DNA of 55,765 nt from a virus (Duplodnaviria; Caudoviricetes). The notes under the pieces were generated by a model, which worked only from the letters and a program-made list of their open reading frames with translations, searched no databases and was not told the DNA's origin. The stretch covers positions 1 to 55,765 of the IMG/VR virus record IMGVR_UViG_3300008110_005672; one strand, 5' to 3'. Each line of letters begins with the position of its first letter. The first letter of the stretch is position 1. Positions 1-33,651 of the stretch are shown one piece after another. The position numbers and the translations under genes were made by a program.

Positions 1-18
1 ATACTTATATAATGTTTA

Positions 19-93
19 TGGTACACCGTAGGAGAGTCGAACTCCTCTTACCGGGATGAAAACCCGGTGTCCTAACCGATAGACGAACGGTGC
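19..93 (-). tRNA. tRNA-Glu(TTC)
   Basis: Cloverleaf on minus strand; anticodon arm CCGGG-tt TTC at-CCCGG; GTTCGA T-loop; encoded CCA. Confidence 0.95.
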
Positions 94-101
94 AAATTGT
101 T

Positions 102-175
102 TGGCGTACCCCCAGGGACTCGAACCCCGACTAACGGTTTTGGAGACCGCAGTACTGCCATTATACTAGGGATAC
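102..175 (-). tRNA. tRNA-Trp(CCA)
   Basis: Anticodon arm GCGGT-ct CCA aa-ACCGT; T-loop GTTCGAG; encoded CCA. Confidence 0.95.
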
Positions 176-180
176 ATAAC

Positions 181-255
181 TGGCTCCAGAGGCAGGGATC
201 GAACCTACGACCAATTGATTAACAGTCAACTGCACTACCGCTGTGCTACTCTGGA
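181..255 (-). tRNA. tRNA-Asn(GTT)
   Basis: Anticodon arm GTTGA-ct GTT aa-TCAAT; T-loop GTTCGAT; encoded CCA. Confidence 0.95.
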
Positions 256-261
256 ATAACT

Positions 262-337
262 TGGCGCCTCGTAGGGGAGTCGAACCCCTGTATTCCGCTA
301 GACAGGCGGATATAATAGACCGTTATATGAACGAGGC
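262..337 (-). tRNA. tRNA-Asp(GTC)
   Basis: Anticodon arm TCCGC-ct GTC ta-GCGGA; T-loop GTTCGAC; encoded CCA; atypical U37. Confidence 0.92.
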
Positions 338-344
338 AAAATTG

Positions 345-539
345 TTAAGCAACGCCACGGAAGGTGACACGGCACCGTTCCTGGCCACCATATTGGGCTT
401 CTGCAATACGCACAGCATCGCCTGATGACTGAGCATTTACCACAGTTTCAAATTGTCTAAGACTCTCAGTTTGGAAAGCACCACTAGTACCTTCACCTGC
501 ATAAGAACCTACTTCAACATAAACACGATACGATTGCAT
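345..539 (-). CDS. hypothetical protein (64 aa, MQSYRVYVEV...) within tRNA array
   Basis: AAGGA SD upstream of ATG at 539; own promoter at 570-598. Confidence 0.7.
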   Translation of the reverse strand: MQSYRVYVEVGSYAGEGTSGAFQTESLRQFETVVNAQSSGDAVRIAEAQYGGQERCRVTFRGVA

Positions 540-569
540 TTGATTTCCTTTCAAGTTCACAGTATTAAT

Positions 570-598
570 AGTATAACACCGATCCAAAAAAAAGTCAA
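570..598 (-). promoter_or_regulatory. sigma70-type promoter
   Basis: TTGACT-17 bp-TATACT. Confidence 0.75.
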
Positions 599-607
599 TC
601 ATTATTT

Positions 608-696
608 TGGTGGAAGCGGTAGGATTCGAACCTACAGTGTTTCTTATGTGGCGGATTTACAGTCCGTTGCCTTCAACCAATTCAGCGCACACTTCC
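608..696 (-). tRNA. tRNA-Tyr(GTA)
   Basis: Anticodon arm CGGA-ct GTA aa-TCCG; long variable arm; encoded CCA. Confidence 0.95.
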
Positions 697-699
697 AAT

Positions 700-925
700 T
701 TGTTCACACTCTCCGCTATGCTTTTAGACACCGTTCAAAGGTGAATGGAGAATGTGTATTAAAGCATACTCAGCTTGTGGCCTTATCCCCTAAACATTCT
801 AGTTTCGGAATATGCTTTAATACGCTGTAATTTTTCACACTACAAATAGTGCTCCATCCTACAGGCCGCCCGTTCGTCTATGTTTTAAGTGCAGACTGGG
901 ACCTCGTTTCCCTTAACACTTTTGC
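700..925 (-). ncRNA. unassigned structured RNA upstream of tRNA-Tyr
   Basis: No credible ORF; stems 705-714/747-756 and a ~16 bp stem at ~756-771/808-823, with G.U pairs consistent with the minus strand. Confidence 0.45.
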
Positions 926-927
926 TA

Positions 928-1101
928 TCAGTTTACACTAAACGTCGGTGATTTAGCTAACGCTTCGCGATATATTCTAGCACGTTCAAACTTATCTTGA
1001 ATAAGTTTTTGAAGCTGTTCTTGAGTCATTTCTCCAAAAGCAGTTTCATAAGCCTGTTCAACAATTCGTTCGTTTAATTTTTCGTAATTTATATCTGTCA
1101 T
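928..1101 (-). CDS. small hypothetical protein (57 aa, MTDINYEKLNERIVEQAYE...)
   Basis: Open frame read by hand; AAGGA SD directly after the terminator U-tract. Confidence 0.7.
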   Translation of the reverse strand: MTDINYEKLNERIVEQAYETAFGEMTQEQLQKLIQDKFERARIYREALAKSPTFSVN

Positions 1102-1115
1102 TTTTTTCCTTTTGT

Positions 1116-1150
1116 AAAAACAAAAACCCCAGGGTGTTTAGTCCTGGGGT
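1116..1150 (-). terminator. intrinsic terminator of putative attenuator
   Basis: ACCCCAGG-9 nt loop-CCTGGGGT followed by TTTTGTTTTT. Confidence 0.85.
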
Positions 1151-1205
1151 CCTTTGAAGTTTATGTGTGTTTTTTTGTTTACACGAACATCTCCACGGAC
1201 CCCGG
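1143..1205 (-). promoter_or_regulatory. putative antiterminator hairpin
   Basis: GGGGUCC/GGACCCC + UGGAG/CUUCA + AUGU-GUGU/ACAC-ACAU; sequesters the 5' arm of the terminator; leader stop codon at the apex. Confidence 0.7.
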
Positions 1206-1322
1206 CTCTAGCTCTGGTGTGCGATCATATGATAGACCATTAATCACGGACCAGCAAGAGGCTATAAAGCCTACCTGTTTTGGCATAGGATTAAAATGAC
1301 TATGTAATGACGCTAATTTCAT
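1179..1322 (-). CDS. putative attenuator leader peptide (47 aa) containing all 20 amino acids
   Basis: MKLASLHSHFNPMPKQVGFIASCWSVINGLSYDRTPELEPGSVEMFV*; AAGGA SD; lies between promoter and terminator. Confidence 0.7.
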   Translation of the reverse strand: MKLASLHSHFNPMPKQVGFIASCWSVINGLSYDRTPELEPGSVEMFV

Positions 1323-1369
1323 TTGTTTTATTTTCCTTTTATAGACAACACCTTGCTGTCTATGTTTTA

Positions 1370-1398
1370 ATTATACAGTTATTTAGTTGTCTTGTCAA
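1370..1398 (-). promoter_or_regulatory. consensus sigma70 promoter (with TAAATA in spacer)
   Basis: TTGACA-17 bp-TATAAT; 10-bp hairpin at 1341-1363 at the predicted transcript 5' end. Confidence 0.9.
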
Positions 1399-1456
1399 CT
1401 TCTATTTGTCGTTTTGGCAAAATAAATTTTTGACCTTTTCCTAACCAACTGTGTGT

Positions 1457-1485
1457 ATTGTATTGTCTTTTTATTTATGTGTCAA
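1457..1485 (-). promoter_or_regulatory. second tandem sigma70 promoter
   Basis: TTGACA-17 bp-TACAAT. Confidence 0.75.
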
Positions 1486-1541
1486 CAGAAATATGATCGT
1501 ATTATGTGGCTTTTTTACCACAGTTTAGATTAAATAGTTAT

Positions 1542-2096
1542 ATGAACTTATTTCATTATAATTTAAACATACCAGAAATTTTTCTTCCTTACAAGTTTGT
1601 AGATGACAACAAGTTTCAAGAAATTATTTTAAATCACGAGTTCATCAATCCAAAGTTTCACAAATGGTTGGAAAGTTTTGATTTAAAAATTCTGTCATGG
1701 GGTACTAGATTTTTTTCTAGTCCTCCGTACATGAAATACAACTTACATGTTGATTGGAAAGACGGACCAGTAACTAAAATTAACATTGTCTTTAATAGCA
1801 CAGACACTGTAATGAATTGGTATAAATTATTACCGGGCAAGAGTCCAATAGTTTATCGAAATCAATTAGGTCAGCCAGTCAACGGATACAACATTGACGA
1901 TTGTCAAAAAGTTTACACAGTTCAAACTAATACTCATTGTTTAATTAACGGCAACGAAATTCATGATCTCATTAACGGCTCAAACAACGGAAAAAATAGG
2001 CACTGTTATTCTATGGTTTTAGGTTATAAAAAAACTAATGAAAGACTTCCGTGGAATCAATCGGTAGAAATTTTTCGTGATTATTTAATTCTTTAA
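1542..2096 (+). CDS. putative 2OG-Fe(II) oxygenase-like protein
   Basis: HxD (LHVD)...H (IHDL)...R (RHCYS) pattern; TAAATA just upstream of the ATG at 1542. Confidence 0.5.
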   Translation: MNLFHYNLNIPEIFLPYKFVDDNKFQEIILNHEFINPKFHKWLESFDLKILSWGTRFFSSPPYMKYNLHVDWKDGPVTKINIVFNSTDTVMNWYKLLPGKSPIVYRNQLGQPVNGYNIDDCQKVYTVQTNTHCLINGNEIHDLINGSNNGKNRHCYSMVLGYKKTNERLPWNQSVEIFRDYLIL

Positions 2097-2714
2097 CTAG
2101 ATTATTCCCGGATCTATCTTTTCAAGTTGATCAAACGCCCACTGACGTTCATTGCAACCGTTACAGGTTTTGCATCGAGTGATTTCCCAGGCTGCACAAC
2201 TATGAGTAATATAAAATAAACCTTCTTGCTGATGCTGCACACACAGATCAATAATATGACTCTTGTTAAGTTTTTTAAATGGTGCTTTAAATCGAGATGA
2301 TTCTTGATAAGGAATAGGAGTCCAATCTACCATGTGCATTGGTAACTGTTCTATCAATCCTGTGTAAGCAATATCTATGCCTTTATCAAATGCTTCATGA
2401 ACACCAGATTTAACCTGTTCAATTTCTGGAAGCGAAGGATCACCTACTATAGTAGTCTCAACGTAGTGCAAATTAAAATGCCAAATCATATGTGCTACCA
2501 CAAGTTTGGCAAAATGTTTAGATCCTTCTTTTCTAAGCACAGTGAGCGGAACAATCTTATGTATATTGCCCATTTTTTGATTCTCTAGTAACATCATATA
2601 ATAGAGAATAGCACTGTCAATACCACCACTGACAAAAATTCCAAGAGTCTTTGGTTCAGCAGGCAGTTCTACTCTCACAGATCGCCTATCGTATGCTGGG
2701 CCGCATTCAATCAA
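2097..2714 (-). CDS. QueC-like PP-loop ATPase
   Basis: SGGIDS PP-loop; C-terminal HSC...CxxCxxC zinc motif. Confidence 0.7.
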   Translation of the reverse strand: MIECGPAYDRRSVRVELPAEPKTLGIFVSGGIDSAILYYMMLLENQKMGNIHKIVPLTVLRKEGSKHFAKLVVAHMIWHFNLHYVETTIVGDPSLPEIEQVKSGVHEAFDKGIDIAYTGLIEQLPMHMVDWTPIPYQESSRFKAPFKKLNKSHIIDLCVQHQQEGLFYITHSCAAWEITRCKTCNGCNERQWAFDQLEKIDPGII

Positions 2715-2961
2715 ATGTTGTTTCTCCGCTAATTAGAATGTGCTTGCCAATTTCGAATAGGCCAATACTGCCAGGCAGGTCCATTGCTGCCACGTGTATT
2801 TGGCACTCTCCGTCATTGCCAATTGAGCAGGCTACAAATTCTTTAATGCTGCCATTTTCAACTGAATCTTTTATAAAATCAATAACTTCAAGCATGGCCT
2901 TCTTTTGTTCTTCTTCTTGAATTTGTTCTTTGCGTCTAGAATTAATACTTACAATTTCCAT
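2707..2961 (-). CDS. hypothetical protein
   Basis: ORF in tight operon context. Confidence 0.7.
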   Translation of the reverse strand: MEIVSINSRRKEQIQEEEQKKAMLEVIDFIKDSVENGSIKEFVACSIGNDGECQIHVAAMDLPGSIGLFEIGKHILISGETTFD

Positions 2962-2969
2962 AATTGACC

Positions 2970-3530
2970 TTAAAGTAAATGATCAGCAACTCCTAACTCA
3001 ATCAGCTCGTCGGCTGTGAGATAAACATCGCTAGCTGGTAATAATTTTTTCTTGATTACACTCGGAGCCATACCTGTAGCTTCTTTAAGAATGTCAACCA
3101 TTTTTTGATTGCAAAGATCGTTCTCACGCATCGTGGCTTTAAGATCATGATACTTGGCATCCATGTTTTCTGTAAACTGATGACACATGAAGCTGGCATT
3201 CCTAGAAGCATATCTTTCACCTGGTGAGCCTGCGGCAAAAATTAGAAAGGCTGCACTCATGGCGGTACCAATACTGATAGTTCTAACAGGATGATGACTG
3301 GTGCGCATTACATCGATTAAAGCAAATGCATCGTATAAATTTCCACCCGTAGAATTTATATACAAGGTTAAAACTTTGGATTTTGCAGTGTCAAAATTTT
3401 CATAAACAATCCATTTAACACACTCTGCGATATTTTCTTCGGCAATTTCACCCACCAGAAAATGAACCGAATTTTCCAGTAATTTTATGCCAATCCGATC
3501 GCTGGCGTTAAACTCGTCTATCTTTTTCAC
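2970..3530 (-). CDS. clpP: ClpP-like ATP-dependent protease proteolytic subunit
   Basis: YINSTGG, GxAMSAA catalytic Ser, MCHQ His, C-terminal YLTADE..GVAD; start uncertain. Confidence 0.85.
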   Translation of the reverse strand: MKKIDEFNASDRIGIKLLENSVHFLVGEIAEENIAECVKWIVYENFDTAKSKVLTLYINSTGGNLYDAFALIDVMRTSHHPVRTISIGTAMSAAFLIFAAGSPGERYASRNASFMCHQFTENMDAKYHDLKATMRENDLCNQKMVDILKEATGMAPSVIKKKLLPASDVYLTADELIELGVADHLL

Positions 3531-3607
3531 TACTGCTCCTTGGACACTATTACTTATCACATTAATAATTATACTATCAGTTAATGGTAAAAGAACTTAG
3601 ACAAACG

Positions 3608-33014: not shown

Positions 33015-33075
33015 GTGATTTTAATAGATTTTTCAACAATTTTTTTAATGATACATATAGAAATTTTTAATAATG

Positions 33076-33100
33076 AAAAGAAACCCGCCGAAGCGGGTTC
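33076..33100 (-). terminator. intrinsic terminator after tmRNA
   Basis: AACCCGC-TTCG-GCGGGTT followed by TCTTTT. Confidence 0.85.
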
Positions 33101-33442
33101 TGCTATTTTGGATGACAAGGTATAACTACCTCGGACCGCTGTTTTTTAGGCAGCTAGGGCAACTTTGCTTTTGCCGGAAACAGTGTTTCCAGTGAAGCTC
33201 ATTGCGCTGAAGTCAAATGTATCTGCGTTTGCATTTACGATTTTTGCTTGATTTACGGTCATCGCCTACCGTGTTGCCGTCTCTATTATCTCACCCTGTC
33301 GAAACCATGGCAGGCCCATTATGAAGTATACTCAGCTTTCGCTTTGCTTCCAGAATACTCGGATCGGAGTATACTTTATGGTGGACCTGGCGGGAGTCGA
33401 ACCCGCGTCCAGAATGCCTTCACTTTGAAGGGATTACAACAA
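33101..33442 (-). ncRNA. ssrA: circularly permuted (two-piece) tmRNA
   Basis: Acceptor piece ending GGTTCGACTCCCGCCAGGTCCACCA (33379) precedes the coding piece starting GGGCCTG...TTCGAC (33317); G3.U70; tag ANADTFDFSAMSFTGNTVSGKSKVALAA* at 33146-33232. Confidence 0.92.
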
Positions 33443-33447
33443 TTCTT

Positions 33448-33651
33448 TTAGGCAGCTTGGATATTGCTAGCCTGCTCGCCTTTTTGACCCTGAGTCACTT
33501 CAAACCTTACACTTTGTCCTTCTTGTAGGCTCTTGAAGCCACTCGAATTAATCTGTGAAAAGTGAGCAAATAAGTCTGCGCCACCATCGTCCGGAGTAAT
33601 GAATCCAAAACCTTTGGCGTCGTTAAACCATTTTACTTTTCCTGTTACCAT
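33448..33651 (-). CDS. cold-shock protein (CspA family)
   Basis: GKVKWFN..KGFGFI; LFAHFSQI. Confidence 0.95.

What the first reader, a model, noticed from the sequence alone, without database searches (positions are those of the whole stretch)
1116..1485. Candidate pan-amino-acid transcription attenuator gating the phage tRNA region
Seen, on the minus strand in order: two tandem sigma70 promoters (TTGACA-17-TACAAT, TTGACA-17-TATAAT), a 5' hairpin, an SD, and a 47-codon ORF missed by the ORF track (MKLASLHSHFNPMPKQVGFIASCWSVINGLSYDRTPELEPGSVEMFV). All 20 amino acids appear within its first 37 codons. Codons ~40-47 form the 5' strand of a long hairpin (GGGGUCC/GGACCCC, UGGAG/CUUCA, AUGU-GUGU/ACAC-ACAU; UAA at the apex). 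Its 3' strand is also the 5' arm of a strong terminator (ACCCCAGG/CCUGGGGU + U-tract), so the two folds are mutually exclusive. Downstream lie a 57-aa ORF, a structured RNA and the tRNA genes. Established: this is the geometry of ribosome-mediated attenuators (trp, his, pheST), whose leaders are enriched for one amino acid. Inference: a ribosome reaching the stop codon melts the antiterminator and transcription ends. Stalling at any codon (starvation, or host anticodon-nuclease cleavage of any tRNA) would allow read-through. The phage would thus sample the whole tRNA pool and add its own tRNAs on demand. I do not know of this being described in phages. Caveat: an internal promoter at 570-598 can transcribe the Asp/Asn/Trp/Glu tRNAs independently.
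Basis: partly seen in the sequence, partly recalled or inferred. Interest (0 to 1): 0.92.

Follow-up and report, generated by a model that had tools for sequence, protein, structure and literature searches.

The report
All-amino-acid leader gating phage tRNA genes
A short gene at the head of a giant phage's tRNA cluster uses every amino acid, and nearly every tRNA family, once or twice, and it ends inside an RNA switch that would let the phage turn on its tRNA genes whenever any one tRNA runs short.

Summary
No experiment exists yet.

**Window anatomy (minus strand).** Two near-consensus sigma-70 promoters, a 5' hairpin and a 47-codon ORF (1322..1179). A long hairpin (1205..1143) has its 3' arm shared with an intrinsic terminator (1154..1116). 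Then follow a 57-aa ORF, a structured RNA and tRNA genes.

**Conservation.**
- 45 of 45 loci found through the 57-aa gene carry an ORF of 35-51 codons ending in the same hairpin.
- So do 117 of 117 usable loci found through a DNA motif.
- 103 of 125 distinct leaders hold all 20 amino acids. The figure is 1.7% for 47-residue windows of this phage's own proteins.
- A tree-aware simulation reached the observed retention in 0 of 2000 runs.
- 72 of 125 leaders cover all 24 non-interchangeable decoding families. The background is 0.0001.

**RNA switch.** Both the terminator and the competing hairpin show compensatory changes. The geometry predicts that a ribosome reaching the stop frees the terminator, and a stalled or absent ribosome allows read-through.

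**New here.** The codon families missing from a leader tend to be those whose tRNAs are missing from the downstream array (24 overlaps against 9.7 expected; 0 of 20,000 permutations).

It is a new variant of ribosome-mediated attenuation.

The parts
1457..1485 (-). upstream sigma-70-type promoter (TTGACA-17-TACAAT)
   Evidence: 11 of 12 consensus positions. Conservation of this second promoter in relatives was not tested.
1370..1398 (-). leader promoter (TTGACA-17-TATAAT)
   Evidence: 12 of 12; 38 of 38 distinct relatives have a 10-12 of 12 promoter with a 17-nt spacer upstream of the leader ATG.
1341..1363 (-). 5'-terminal stem-loop of the leader transcript
   Evidence: -10.8 kcal/mol, z -5.6. 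By eye, relatives have a stem-loop of different sequence at this place, or none where the ATG lies 6-10 nt after the -10 box.
1334..1338 (-). SD-like AAGGA, 11 nt before the ATG
   Evidence: GAG- or GGA-containing stretches occur at -16..-4 in most relatives. Not tested statistically.
1179..1322 (-). 47-codon leader ORF holding all 20 amino acids and 23 of 24 decoding families (lacks AGR-Arg); stop UAA at 1181..1179
1143..1205 (-). antiterminator hairpin. Its 5' arm is codons ~40-47, the stop codon sits at the apex, and the 3' arm contains the terminator's 5' arm.
1116..1154 (-). intrinsic terminator: GC-rich stem, 9-nt loop and U-tract 1126..1116
   Evidence: (6 of 12 pairs with compensatory changes)
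928..1101 (-). first gated gene: a 57-aa protein of unknown function, with its SD directly after the U-tract
697..927 (-). conserved structured RNA of unknown family between the 57-aa ORF and the first tRNA
   Evidence: 45 pairs, 24 with compensatory changes; no Rfam match
608..696 (-). tRNA-Tyr(GTA), first tRNA of the array. No promoter-like site lies between it and the terminator.
570..598 (-). internal promoter-like site (TTGACT-17-TATACT, with a TG extension)
   Evidence: 10 of 12
19..337 (-). tRNA-Asp, -Asn, -Trp and -Glu. The array is cut by the end of the record.

Best explanation
This is a ribosome-mediated transcription attenuator at the head of a jumbo-phage tRNA operon. Its leader ORF acts as a set-cover probe of the tRNA pool.

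The proposed sequence of events is as follows.

1. A strong sigma-70 promoter starts a transcript whose first feature is an ORF of 35-51 codons. The ORF contains every amino acid and usually every decoding family that one tRNA cannot share with another: Leu UUR and CUN, Ser UCN and AGY, Arg CGN and AGR, Ile AUA and AUH, and an internal Met.
2. The last ~8-10 codons and the stop codon form the 5' arm and apex of a long hairpin. The 3' arm of that hairpin contains the 5' arm of an intrinsic terminator.
3. If the lead ribosome keeps pace with RNA polymerase and reaches the stop codon, it holds the 5' arm open. The 3' arm then pairs with the terminator's 3' arm and transcription ends before the 57-aa gene.
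4. If the ribosome stalls at any earlier codon, or never loads, the long hairpin forms first and sequesters the terminator arm. Polymerase then reads through into the 57-aa gene, a conserved structured RNA and the tRNA array.
5. The leader's codon families track the array's tRNA families. The circuit is therefore best read as negative feedback: shortage of any tRNA the array can supply turns the array on, and sufficiency turns it off.

**Shown:** the sequence anatomy, its conservation, the compositional constraint, the covariation of both stems, and the link between leader and array. **Inferred:** translation of the ORF, termination at this site, the kinetics and the sign of the response.
For: 1. 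**The ORF is universal.** It is present in the window plus 45 of 45 loci and in 117 of 117 usable loci found by an ORF-blind DNA motif. The stop lay 44-54 nt before the U-tract in the 45 of 46 rows where it was located. Other ORFs of 25 codons or more in the same 333 nt occur in only 4 of 46 loci.
2. **All 20 amino acids are covered.**
   - 34 of 38 distinct peptides, 69 of 88 new ones and 103 of 125 distinct leaders hold all 20.
   - Background is 1.7% at 47 residues and 0.05% at 35 residues.
   - A simulation on the peptide tree used the same number of changes per column. It gave 4.4 +/- 3.9 of 37 tips (maximum 25), against 33 observed; 0 of 2000 runs reached 33.
3. **The peptide itself drifts fast.** Mean pairwise identity is 0.34, against 0.72 for the adjacent 57-aa protein in the same 25 loci. 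The leader is the less conserved of the two in 294 of 300 pairs. Single Cys, His and Tyr residues move between columns. The conserved GGGUCC stem is read in different frames in different loci.
4. **Coverage reaches tRNA level.**
   - 122 of 125 leaders have an internal Met.
   - The mean is 23.2 of 24 decoding families; 72 of 125 have all 24 and 100 of 125 have 23 or more.
   - Among 46-codon gene windows P(24) is 0.0001 and P(23 or more) is 0.004. Gene windows that already hold all 20 amino acids average 21.8.
5. **The switch is conserved.**
   - Terminator: 6 of 12 pairs have compensatory changes.
   - Antiterminator: 94.8% of cells are paired and 7 of 11 pairs have changes on both sides. 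0 of 500 shuffles reach the covariation score. Slid controls give 22-68% paired.
   - In 38 of 38 folds made before the terminator's 3' arm emerges, 7-10 nt of the terminator's 5' arm are sequestered. With the mRNA forced open up to stop+14, the full terminator forms in 38 of 38. Without any constraint, 28 of 38 minimum-energy folds have no terminator pair.
6. **The amino-acid set is complete before the hairpin.** The median distance from the set-completing codon to the G-run is 10 nt. It is 9 nt or more in 80% of the 101 all-20 leaders whose G-run could be located, and the set is completed inside the arm in only 9%.
7. **Context fits.** A 10-12 of 12 promoter stands upstream in 38 of 38 loci. 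In 7 lineages the ATG lies 6-10 nt after the -10 box, which is the leaderless type. Between 9 and 24 tRNA genes were found in each of the 24 loci scanned, which hold 4 kb on each side of the 57-aa gene. All lie downstream except five in L016/L017.
8. **Leader and array vary together.** Among 35 distinct leaders with 5 kb or more of downstream sequence:
   - A family absent from the leader is absent from the array in 24 of 36 cases. A family present in the leader is absent from the array in 142 of 804 cases.
   - Permuting the pairings gives 9.7 +/- 2.8; 0 of 20,000 reach 24.
   - For 14 cluster representatives the figures are 15 against 6.75 (14 of 20,000).
   - A within-locus identity test on the representatives gives 15 against 7.3 (7 of 20,000).
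   - In a 100%-complete 400-kb genome, 4 of the 5 families missing from the leader have their tRNA outside the array or absent. 17 of the 19 families present in the leader have a tRNA inside the array (tallied by eye).
Against: - **No measurement exists.** Translation, termination and regulation were not observed. The host is unknown and no cultured relative was found.
- **Coverage is not universal.** 22 of 125 leaders lack at least one amino acid; one clade lacks both Leu and Val.
- **The link between leader and array has exceptions.**
   - 12 of 36 families missing from a leader are present in the array.
   - L045 lacks UUR-Leu codons although Leu(TAA) is in its array. L036 lacks AGR although Arg(TCT) is at the end of its array.
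   - For unsplit amino acids alone the signal is modest: 6 against 3.0, 687 of 20,000.
   - Arrays are truncated by locus ends, and related loci are not independent.
- **No anti-antiterminator or pause hairpin is established.** Mid-ORF hairpins show little covariation. How the ribosome catches up with polymerase is therefore unexplained.
- **The terminator is sometimes favoured.** In 8 of 38 sequences it is already present in the unconstrained minimum-energy fold, so the balance differs between lineages.
- **Codon adaptation is not clearly different.** Leaders score 0.73 against 0.79 for gene windows, and 21% of gene windows score as low.
- **Part of the array may escape the switch.** An internal promoter-like site (598..570) could transcribe it independently.
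- **The covariation alignment was fitted to the structure** by the covariance model, which favours pairing.
Confidence: 0.75

Rival explanations
1. The hardware is the same attenuator, but it is a generic sensor of translation stress. It would respond to amino-acid starvation, ribosome shortage or inhibitors of translation, and it would not be tuned to the phage's own tRNAs. The match between leader and array would then reflect shared ancestry or genome-wide codon usage.
For: The geometry responds to any delay, including failure to initiate. Many leader codons have no Watson-Crick cognate tRNA among the arrays. In one complete genome no CGN-reading Arg tRNA exists, yet the leader uses CGC. The co-variation signal for unsplit amino acids alone is modest.
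Against: Families missing from a leader match families missing from its array well beyond permutation. The matches include whole amino acids (Glu and Tyr in L076, Cys in L136, Trp in L093 and L126), which codon usage cannot remove from a genome. Split codon families and an internal Met are covered far more often than in all-20 gene windows. This points to tRNA species rather than amino acids.
Confidence: 0.12
2. The long hairpin is mainly an RNA-processing or stability element, such as an RNase III site or a 3' protective stem of a short transcript, or it controls Rho access. Translation of the ORF would then modulate that process rather than intrinsic termination.
For: The hairpin is long and irregular like many processing stems. 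Its 3' half is A/C-rich and G-poor. One metatranscriptome contig spans only 1324..1126, which could be a stable short RNA.
Against: In 38 of 38 sequences the hairpin's 3' arm overlaps the 5' arm of a canonical terminator, and the overlap is kept through compensatory changes. A processing stem does not require that. The stop codon's position within the 5' arm or apex is conserved.
Confidence: 0.06
3. The ORF encodes a functional small protein with its own promoter and a leaky terminator. The peptide is the product, and the overlap of its 3' end with the hairpin is incidental.
For: The ORF is conserved in all loci. It has a conserved Trp and a recurrent Asp-Arg-Thr-Pro-Glu-like stretch.
Against: No known protein function demands all 20 residues in 35-51 positions, yet that property is what is conserved while identity falls to 0.34. 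The C-terminal part changes reading frame relative to the conserved RNA stem. No family matches it. The conserved nucleotide stretches can pair with each other.
Confidence: 0.05
4. The transcript is a non-coding small RNA that runs from the promoter to the terminator. The open frame is not translated.
For: It has a strong promoter, a 5' hairpin and a strong terminator ~240 nt downstream. The SD spacing in the window is long at 11 nt.
Against: An open frame from an ATG to a stop inside the hairpin is kept in 162 of 162 usable relatives of an AT-rich phage, despite indels and frame changes. In 7 lineages the ATG sits where a leaderless mRNA would start. The compositional constraint has no meaning for an untranslated RNA.
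Confidence: 0.02

Closest known systems
Leader-peptide attenuators of amino-acid biosynthetic operons (trpL, hisL, leuL, thrL, ilvL, pheL of enteric bacteria; recalled textbook knowledge, not read here)
   Same: Both have a short translated leader, an intrinsic terminator before the first structural gene and an alternative hairpin that shares a strand with the terminator. In both, the position of the lead ribosome decides which hairpin forms. A ribosome at the leader stop codon favours termination and an upstream stall favours read-through.
   Different: Those leaders carry runs of codons for one to three cognate amino acids; this one carries all 20, mostly once or twice. Those have a third (1:2) pause or anti-antiterminator hairpin, so an untranslated leader terminates; here none is established and the default fold is read-through. 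Their targets are biosynthetic enzymes; here the target is a tRNA array in a virus. No Rfam leader family matches.
pheST (pheM leader) attenuator of E. coli (recalled)
   Same: It is an attenuator with a leader peptide that controls a gene of the translation apparatus rather than a biosynthetic pathway.
   Different: It senses Phe only and controls a tRNA synthetase, not tRNA genes.
Ribosome-stalling attenuators upstream of antibiotic-resistance genes, such as ABC-F and erm-type genes found by 3'-end mapping (recalled)
   Same: They are a generic reading of 'the ribosome did not get through the leader', converted into terminator read-through.
   Different: Their trigger is a drug-arrested ribosome at particular peptide or codon contexts. 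No compositional set-cover constraint has been described for those leaders.
T-box riboswitches (recalled)
   Same: They couple the state of a tRNA to read-through of a terminator upstream of translation-related genes.
   Different: They bind one specific uncharged tRNA directly, without a ribosome or an ORF. No T-box match was found.
pyrBI / pyrE coupling-dependent attenuators (recalled)
   Same: The outcome depends on how closely the lead ribosome follows RNA polymerase.
   Different: The sign is opposite: there a close ribosome blocks the terminator hairpin. Their signal is nucleotide-dependent polymerase speed.

Membership tests
Ribosome-mediated (leader-peptide) transcription attenuators | Short ORF with a start signal at the 5' end of the transcript, upstream of the regulated genes | tested here: met
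   47 codons in the window. Present in 45 of 45 and 117 of 117 related loci. A promoter stands upstream in 38 of 38 distinct loci, counting the window's, and the start has either an SD-like stretch (seen by eye, not tested statistically) or is of the leaderless type (7 lineages).
Ribosome-mediated (leader-peptide) transcription attenuators | Intrinsic terminator between the leader and the first structural gene | tested here: met
   -18.6 kcal/mol stem plus U-tract. 6 of 12 pairs have compensatory changes.
Ribosome-mediated (leader-peptide) transcription attenuators | Alternative hairpin that shares a strand with the terminator (antiterminator) | tested here: met
   38 of 38 folds sequester 7-10 nt of the terminator's 5' arm. 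7 of 11 pairs have changes on both sides; 0 of 500 shuffles reach the covariation score.
Ribosome-mediated (leader-peptide) transcription attenuators | Leader stop codon placed so that a terminating ribosome disrupts the antiterminator | tested here: met
   The stop lies 11-31 nt after the start of the 5' arm and 33-43 nt before the end of the 3' arm. With the mRNA open to stop+14 the terminator forms in 38 of 38.
Ribosome-mediated (leader-peptide) transcription attenuators | Read-through responds to translation of the leader | not testable with these tools
   This needs a reporter or an in vitro coupled assay. Metatranscriptome contigs give only a weak hint.
Amino-acid operon leaders (trp/his/leu/thr/ilv/phe type) | Cluster of regulatory codons for the cognate amino acid(s) | tested here: not met
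   No run is present. All 20 amino acids occur, most once to three times.
Amino-acid operon leaders (trp/his/leu/thr/ilv/phe type) | Upstream 1:2 pause or anti-antiterminator hairpin, so that an untranslated leader terminates | tested here: inconclusive
   Mid-ORF hairpins are predicted in most sequences. The consensus has only 2 of 12 pairs with compensatory change. The unconstrained fold favours the antiterminator in 28 of 38.
Amino-acid operon leaders (trp/his/leu/thr/ilv/phe type) | Match to a curated Rfam leader model | tested here: not met
   cmscan of 1..3000 at E up to 1 found only five tRNAs and one chance-level hit.
T-box riboswitch | Specifier loop and T-box sequence (Rfam model) | tested here: not met
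   No match at E up to 1.

The most novel reading that the evidence does not exclude
The leader is a self-tuning pan-tRNA homeostat. Its codon repertoire co-evolves with the tRNA repertoire of the array it gates. The phage would thus test, family by family, exactly those tRNAs it can supply. It would switch on the whole operon when any one of them limits elongation, for example after host tRNA decay or an anticodon-nuclease attack. The operon comprises the tRNAs, a highly conserved 57-aa protein and an undescribed structured RNA. Leaders lose a codon family when the matching tRNA gene leaves the regulated unit.
Probability: 0.5. Interest if true: 0.95.

Novelty: new variant of a known kind. 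Interest (0 to 1): 0.9.

Why it matters
- **A different sensing principle.** Known attenuators sense one, or at most three, amino acids through runs of codons. A leader selected to contain every amino acid and nearly every non-interchangeable codon family would be a one-transcript probe of the whole decoding capacity of the cell. I found no description of this in seven full-text searches (listings only, and subscription journals are not held).
- **A regulatory logic for phage tRNA arrays.** Their control is largely unknown. Supply on demand with negative feedback would fill that gap, and it would link the arrays to host tRNA decay and to tRNA-cleaving defence systems.
- **A searchable signature.** Short ORFs with improbable set-cover composition that end in a terminator-overlapping hairpin could be sought elsewhere.
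- **A compact natural part.** The element could report tRNA or amino-acid sufficiency in synthetic systems.
- **Directly testable.** The predictions can be checked with a cell-free system in which single amino acids or tRNAs are omitted.

Tried and rejected
- **Cultured relatives.** blastn (distant mode) of 900-1560 against GenBank phages found no match. tblastn of the 57-aa protein against the same collection found no match. No cultured relative is therefore at hand.
- **Known RNA families.** Rfam at E up to 1 found no leader, T-box or other family.
- **Known protein families.** Pfam, PHROGs and NCBIfam gave nothing above their cut-offs for the 47-aa or 57-aa products. The ESM Atlas gave no usable hit for the 57-aa protein.
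- **Neighbouring gene as a handle.** The QueC-like neighbour gave only one related locus, which was not used.
- **MAFFT plus RNAalifold on the antiterminator.** This recovered only its base stem. A covariance-model alignment was therefore used. That alignment leans towards the structure.
- **Rare-codon hypothesis.** A CAI-like index gave 0.73 for leaders and 0.79 for gene windows, and 21% of gene windows score as low. This is inconclusive. The single-codon skews (GAG, GAT, TAT, CAT) may be inherited or imposed by RNA structure.
- **Pause hairpin inside the ORF.** One is predicted in most sequences, but covariation is weak. It is not claimed.
- **Metatranscriptomes**. Contigs from four RNA runs of four studies hold parts of 300-1700.
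  - One 199-nt contig (X3) covers 1324..1126, that is, from 2 nt before the leader ATG to the first U after the terminator stem.
  - No listed contig has 31 nt on both sides of the U-tract; 68 pieces were not shown.
  - Contigs cannot show RNA ends or levels, and DNA may be present in such libraries. I treat this as a weak hint only.
- **An unrelated cultured phage with a tRNA array.** In Stenotrophomonas phage Moby the 39-aa ORF just upstream of the array has 13 residue types by my count. No similar switch was seen by eye. This is one negative example, and no wider survey was made.
- **Leader and array in five large records.**
  - G004 supports the link clearly: 4 of its 5 missing families fit.
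  - G003 supports it clearly: 3 of 3 fit.
  - G002 fits for Lys but not for Phe.
  - G001 fits for Phe but not for AGR.
  - G005 contradicts it for UUR-Leu.
  - These tallies come and were made by eye.
Full report
**What the window is.** The window is an entire IMG/VR virus record of 55,765 nt. CheckV estimates it at 16% of a genome, which implies a phage of roughly 350 kb. Almost all long ORFs lie on the minus strand. ARAGORN finds tRNA-Glu, -Trp, -Asn, -Asp and -Tyr at 19..696 on the minus strand, and a tmRNA at 33055..33471.

**The observation.** Read on the minus strand, the region holds the following.
- A TTGACA-17-TACAAT promoter at 1485..1457 (11 of 12) and a TTGACA-17-TATAAT promoter at 1398..1370 (12 of 12).
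- A 5' stem-loop at 1363..1341: -10.8 kcal/mol, z -5.6.
- An AAGGA 11 nt before an ATG.
- A 47-codon ORF at 1322..1179, in which all 20 amino acids have appeared by codon 37.
- A 63-nt imperfect hairpin at 1205..1143: -23.9 kcal/mol, z -4.6. Its 5' arm is the last eight codons and its apical loop opens with the UAA.
- A terminator at 1154..1116: -18.6 kcal/mol, z -3.1.

The terminator's 5' arm lies inside the hairpin's 3' arm. The minimum-energy fold of the whole stretch keeps the long hairpin and leaves the terminator unformed. The simple terminator scan missed the site because its loop limit is 8 nt and this loop has 9.

**Relatives.** Nothing similar exists among 50,697 GenBank phage records, at either DNA or protein level. 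The 57-aa gene just downstream of the terminator retrieved 45 loci from IMG/VR. An 18-nt motif at the junction of hairpin and terminator retrieved 120 more. That second search is blind to the ORF.

- Window plus first set: 46 of 46 have an ORF of 35-51 codons. The stop lay 44-54 nt before the U-tract in the 45 rows where the tract was located.
- Second set: 3 loci lie too close to a contig end. The other 117 of 117 have such an ORF.
- Other frames carry an ORF of 25 codons or more in the same 333 nt in only 4 of 46 loci.
- All 38 distinct first-set sequences have a 10-12 of 12 sigma-70-type promoter with a 17-nt spacer upstream of the ATG.
- In seven divergent lineages the ATG follows the -10 box by only 6-10 nt. 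The mRNA there would be leaderless or nearly so.

**The compositional constraint.**
- In the window's own long ORFs, all 20 residues occur in 1.7% of 47-residue windows and in 0.05% of 35-residue windows.
- Among the leaders, all 20 are present in 41 of 46 loci and in 34 of 38 distinct peptides.
- They are present in 69 of 88 further distinct peptides; 15 more have 19, three have 18 and one has 14.
- Overall, 103 of 125 distinct leader sequences hold all 20. One 35-codon leader does so.

This is not inheritance of a conserved peptide.
- Mean pairwise identity of the leaders is 0.34, against 0.72 for the adjacent 57-aa protein in the same 25 loci. The leader is the less conserved of the two in 294 of 300 pairs.
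- The single Cys, His or Tyr sits in different alignment columns in different lineages.
- I tested retention on the peptide tree. The same parsimony number of changes per column was placed at random on the branches, starting from the window's sequence. Replacements were drawn from the leaders' own composition.
- On average 4.4 +/- 3.9 of 37 tips keep all 20 (maximum 25). The observed 33 was reached in 0 of 2000 simulations.

**Coverage at the level of tRNAs.**
- The start codon is read by initiator tRNA, yet 122 of 125 leaders also contain an internal Met codon.
- I split Leu, Ser and Arg into their two codon families and Ile into AUA and AUH. That gives 24 decoding families that no single tRNA can share.
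- Leaders cover 23.2 families on average. 72 of 125 cover all 24 and 100 of 125 cover 23 or more.
- Among 46-codon windows of the phage's genes the mean is 18.3, P(24) is 0.0001 and P(23 or more) is 0.004.
- Even the 137 gene windows that already hold all 20 amino acids average only 21.8.
- One 38-codon leader covers all 24.
- Leader stop codons are TAA (117) or TAG (8) and never TGA. Long genes in the window use 27, 3 and 10 respectively. I did not pursue this.
- A codon-adaptation index does not separate leaders from genes.

**The RNA switch.**
- On the plain MAFFT alignment, RNAalifold picks the terminator. It finds 12 pairs, 6 of them with compensatory changes.
- Each of the 38 distinct sequences folds into a long imperfect hairpin before the terminator's 3' arm is available. 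The apical parts differ in sequence while the pairing is kept.
- The base stem varies between lineages and stays complementary. One pair is AU in 22, GC in 13 and GU in 3. Another is CG in 31 and UA in 5.
- A covariance model of the base stem and the second helix found exactly one site per locus, and one in the window at 1143..1206.
- On the 99 distinct aligned rows, 94.8% of cells pair, 7 of 11 pairs have changes on both sides and 89 cells carry double changes.
- 0 of 500 shuffles reach the covariation score. Sliding the partner by 1-3 columns drops pairing to 22-68%.
- Five antisense rows are included in that alignment, and the alignment is fitted to the model. Both are caveats.
- The conserved GGGUCC motif is read in different frames in different loci. 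It is therefore conserved as RNA, not as peptide.

**Geometry and predicted logic.**
- In 38 of 38 sequences the hairpin sequesters 7-10 nt of the terminator's 5' arm.
- The stop codon lies 11-31 nt after the start of the 5' arm and 33-43 nt before the end of the 3' arm.
- If the mRNA is held single-stranded up to 14 nt past the stop, as under a terminating ribosome, the complete terminator forms in 38 of 38.
- Without a ribosome, 28 of 38 minimum-energy folds contain no terminator pair, 2 contain three pairs and 8 contain the terminator.
- The amino-acid set is normally complete before the hairpin. Its last member is Glu in 61 of 103 leaders. That codon starts a median of 10 nt before the G-run of the 5' arm. 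The distance is 9 nt or more in 80% of the 101 all-20 leaders whose G-run could be located, and the set is completed inside the arm in 9%.
- The inference is that a ribosome that gets through opens the hairpin and transcription ends. A ribosome stalled at any informative codon, or absent, leaves the hairpin intact and polymerase continues.
- I found no convincing third hairpin of the trp 1:2 type. Mid-ORF hairpins are predicted in most sequences, but only 2 of 12 consensus pairs show compensatory change.

**What is gated.**
- Directly after the U-tract comes an SD and the 57-aa ORF. Its mean column identity is 78% across 25 loci. It forms 533 clusters in the large protein collection. Most carry no name; those named are nearly all called hypothetical, and none has a Pfam domain.
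- Next comes a structured RNA of ~200-230 nt with 45 predicted pairs, 24 of which have compensatory changes. It has no Rfam match.
- The tRNA array follows. Between 9 and 24 tRNA genes were found in each of the 24 loci scanned, which hold 4 kb on each side of the 57-aa gene. All lie downstream except five in L016/L017.
- In the window no promoter-like site lies between the terminator and tRNA-Tyr.

**Leader and array vary together.** I ran ARAGORN on up to 12 kb downstream of each switch. I then compared the families present in the leader with those present among same-strand tRNAs.
- Among 35 distinct leaders with 5 kb or more of downstream sequence, a family absent from the leader is also absent from the array in 24 of 36 cases. 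A family present in the leader is absent from the array in 142 of 804 cases.
- Permuting the pairings keeps each family's frequency. It gives 9.7 +/- 2.8 overlaps, and 0 of 20,000 permutations reach 24.
- With one representative per 60%-identity cluster (14 loci) the figures are 15 against 6.75 +/- 2.3 (14 of 20,000). Without the ambiguous AUA family they are 11 against 4.8 (44 of 20,000).
- A second null randomises identities within each locus. For the representatives it gives 15 against 7.3 (7 of 20,000). For the 16 unsplit amino acids alone it gives 6 against 3.0 (687 of 20,000).

Worked examples:
- One leader lacks Glu, Tyr, AUA, AGR, AGY and CUN. Its array lacks Asp, Glu, Tyr, AUA-, AGR- and AGY-readers and UUR-Leu.
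- In its relative (L016, record G003) the Glu, Tyr, Asp and Ser(GCT) tRNA genes lie upstream of the leader promoter.
- In a 100%-complete 400-kb genome the leader lacks AUA, UUR, CUN, AGR and Val. That genome has no Ile(TAT), and its Leu(TAA), Arg(TCT) and Val tRNAs sit in distant clusters. Only Leu(TAG) in the array contradicts the pattern.

Counter-examples exist. L045 and L036 are two, and 12 of 36 missing families are present in the array. The arrays are truncated by locus ends, and the loci are related to one another. The association is therefore well supported but not final.

**Expression.** Four metatranscriptome runs from four studies hold contigs matching parts of 300..1700. One 199-nt contig covers 1324..1126, which is the leader ORF through the terminator stem. 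No listed contig bridges the U-tract with 31 nt on each side. Contigs cannot show ends or levels, so this is a weak hint.

**Comparison with what is known.**
- The hardware is that of ribosome-mediated attenuation. Four structural features that define that class are met here; see the membership table. The functional one cannot be tested with these tools.
- The element is not a member of the amino-acid-operon leader families. It has no run of cognate codons, no Rfam match and no demonstrated 1:2 hairpin, and its targets are tRNA genes.
- In what it senses, it resembles the drug-responsive leaders that report a ribosome that did not get through. In purpose, it resembles T-boxes, which couple tRNA state to terminator read-through. 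It shares neither mechanism.
- These comparisons rest on recalled knowledge.
- Seven full-text searches returned no paper on a leader containing all amino acids or on an attenuator before phage tRNA genes. I saw only titles and the starts of abstracts. Subscription journals are not in the library.
- One cultured phage with a tRNA array (Stenotrophomonas phage Moby) has no comparable leader.

**Verdict.** The finding is real, widely conserved and statistically far from chance. It is a new variant of a known kind of regulator. It has a new sensing principle and clear cell-free and reporter tests.

Noticed in passing
window 697-927 (-), and the same place in L002-L046: A conserved structured RNA of ~200-230 nt lies between the 57-aa ORF and the first tRNA. 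RNAalifold on 14 sequences gives 45 pairs, 24 of them with compensatory changes, and a covariation term of -7.8 kcal/mol. It has no Rfam match. Together with the 57-aa protein it may form an RNP co-regulated with the tRNAs.
   Followed up: partly
window 928-1101 (-): The 57-aa protein is highly conserved: 16 invariant columns across 25 loci and 533 clusters in the large protein collection. It has no family, no informative name and no match in GenBank phages. It always sits directly after the terminator.
   Followed up: partly
window 33055-33471 (-); L011 1902-2318, L014 1049-1447, L018 2565-2981: The phage encodes a tmRNA. In several relatives it lies 1-3 kb upstream of the leader, so two translation-rescue functions are neighbours there.
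   Followed up: no
e.g. L002 7690-7781, L004 4625-4716, L169 8130-8224: ARAGORN calls a 90-95-nt 'tRNA-Ile(TAT)' in most arrays. That is unusually long for an Ile tRNA. Most leaders contain an AUA codon: 81% have both AUA and AUH.
   Followed up: no
L041 5105-5173: ARAGORN reports a tRNA with a four-base anticodon (ttga) inside one array.
   Followed up: no
window 1204-1298 (-) and homologues: Hairpins are predicted inside the leader ORF just before the conserved Trp codon. The TGG...CCA and GCGATT...GATCGY stretches can pair. These are candidates for a polymerase pause signal, but they show almost no covariation.
   Followed up: partly
125 distinct leaders (window 1179-1181 and homologues): Leader stop codons are TAA (117) or TAG (8) and never TGA. 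By contrast, 10 of 40 long ORFs in the window end in TGA.
   Followed up: no
window 1506-2096 (+): A 196-aa ORF lies on the opposite strand, divergent from the leader promoters and convergent with the QueC-like gene. It has no Pfam, PHROG or NCBIfam match. It may be an inserted gene.
   Followed up: no
window 2097-2714 (-) and 2970-3560 (-): Upstream genes encode a QueC-like PP-loop protein (Pfam E = 1.8e-7 over its C-terminal part only) and a ClpP-family protease (E = 5.7e-31).
   Followed up: no
window 1234-1342, runs X1 and X2: RNA contigs of relatives match the conserved flanks but replace 107 nt of the leader's 5' half with 122 other letters. This fits the fast drift of the leader's first codons.
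   Followed up: no
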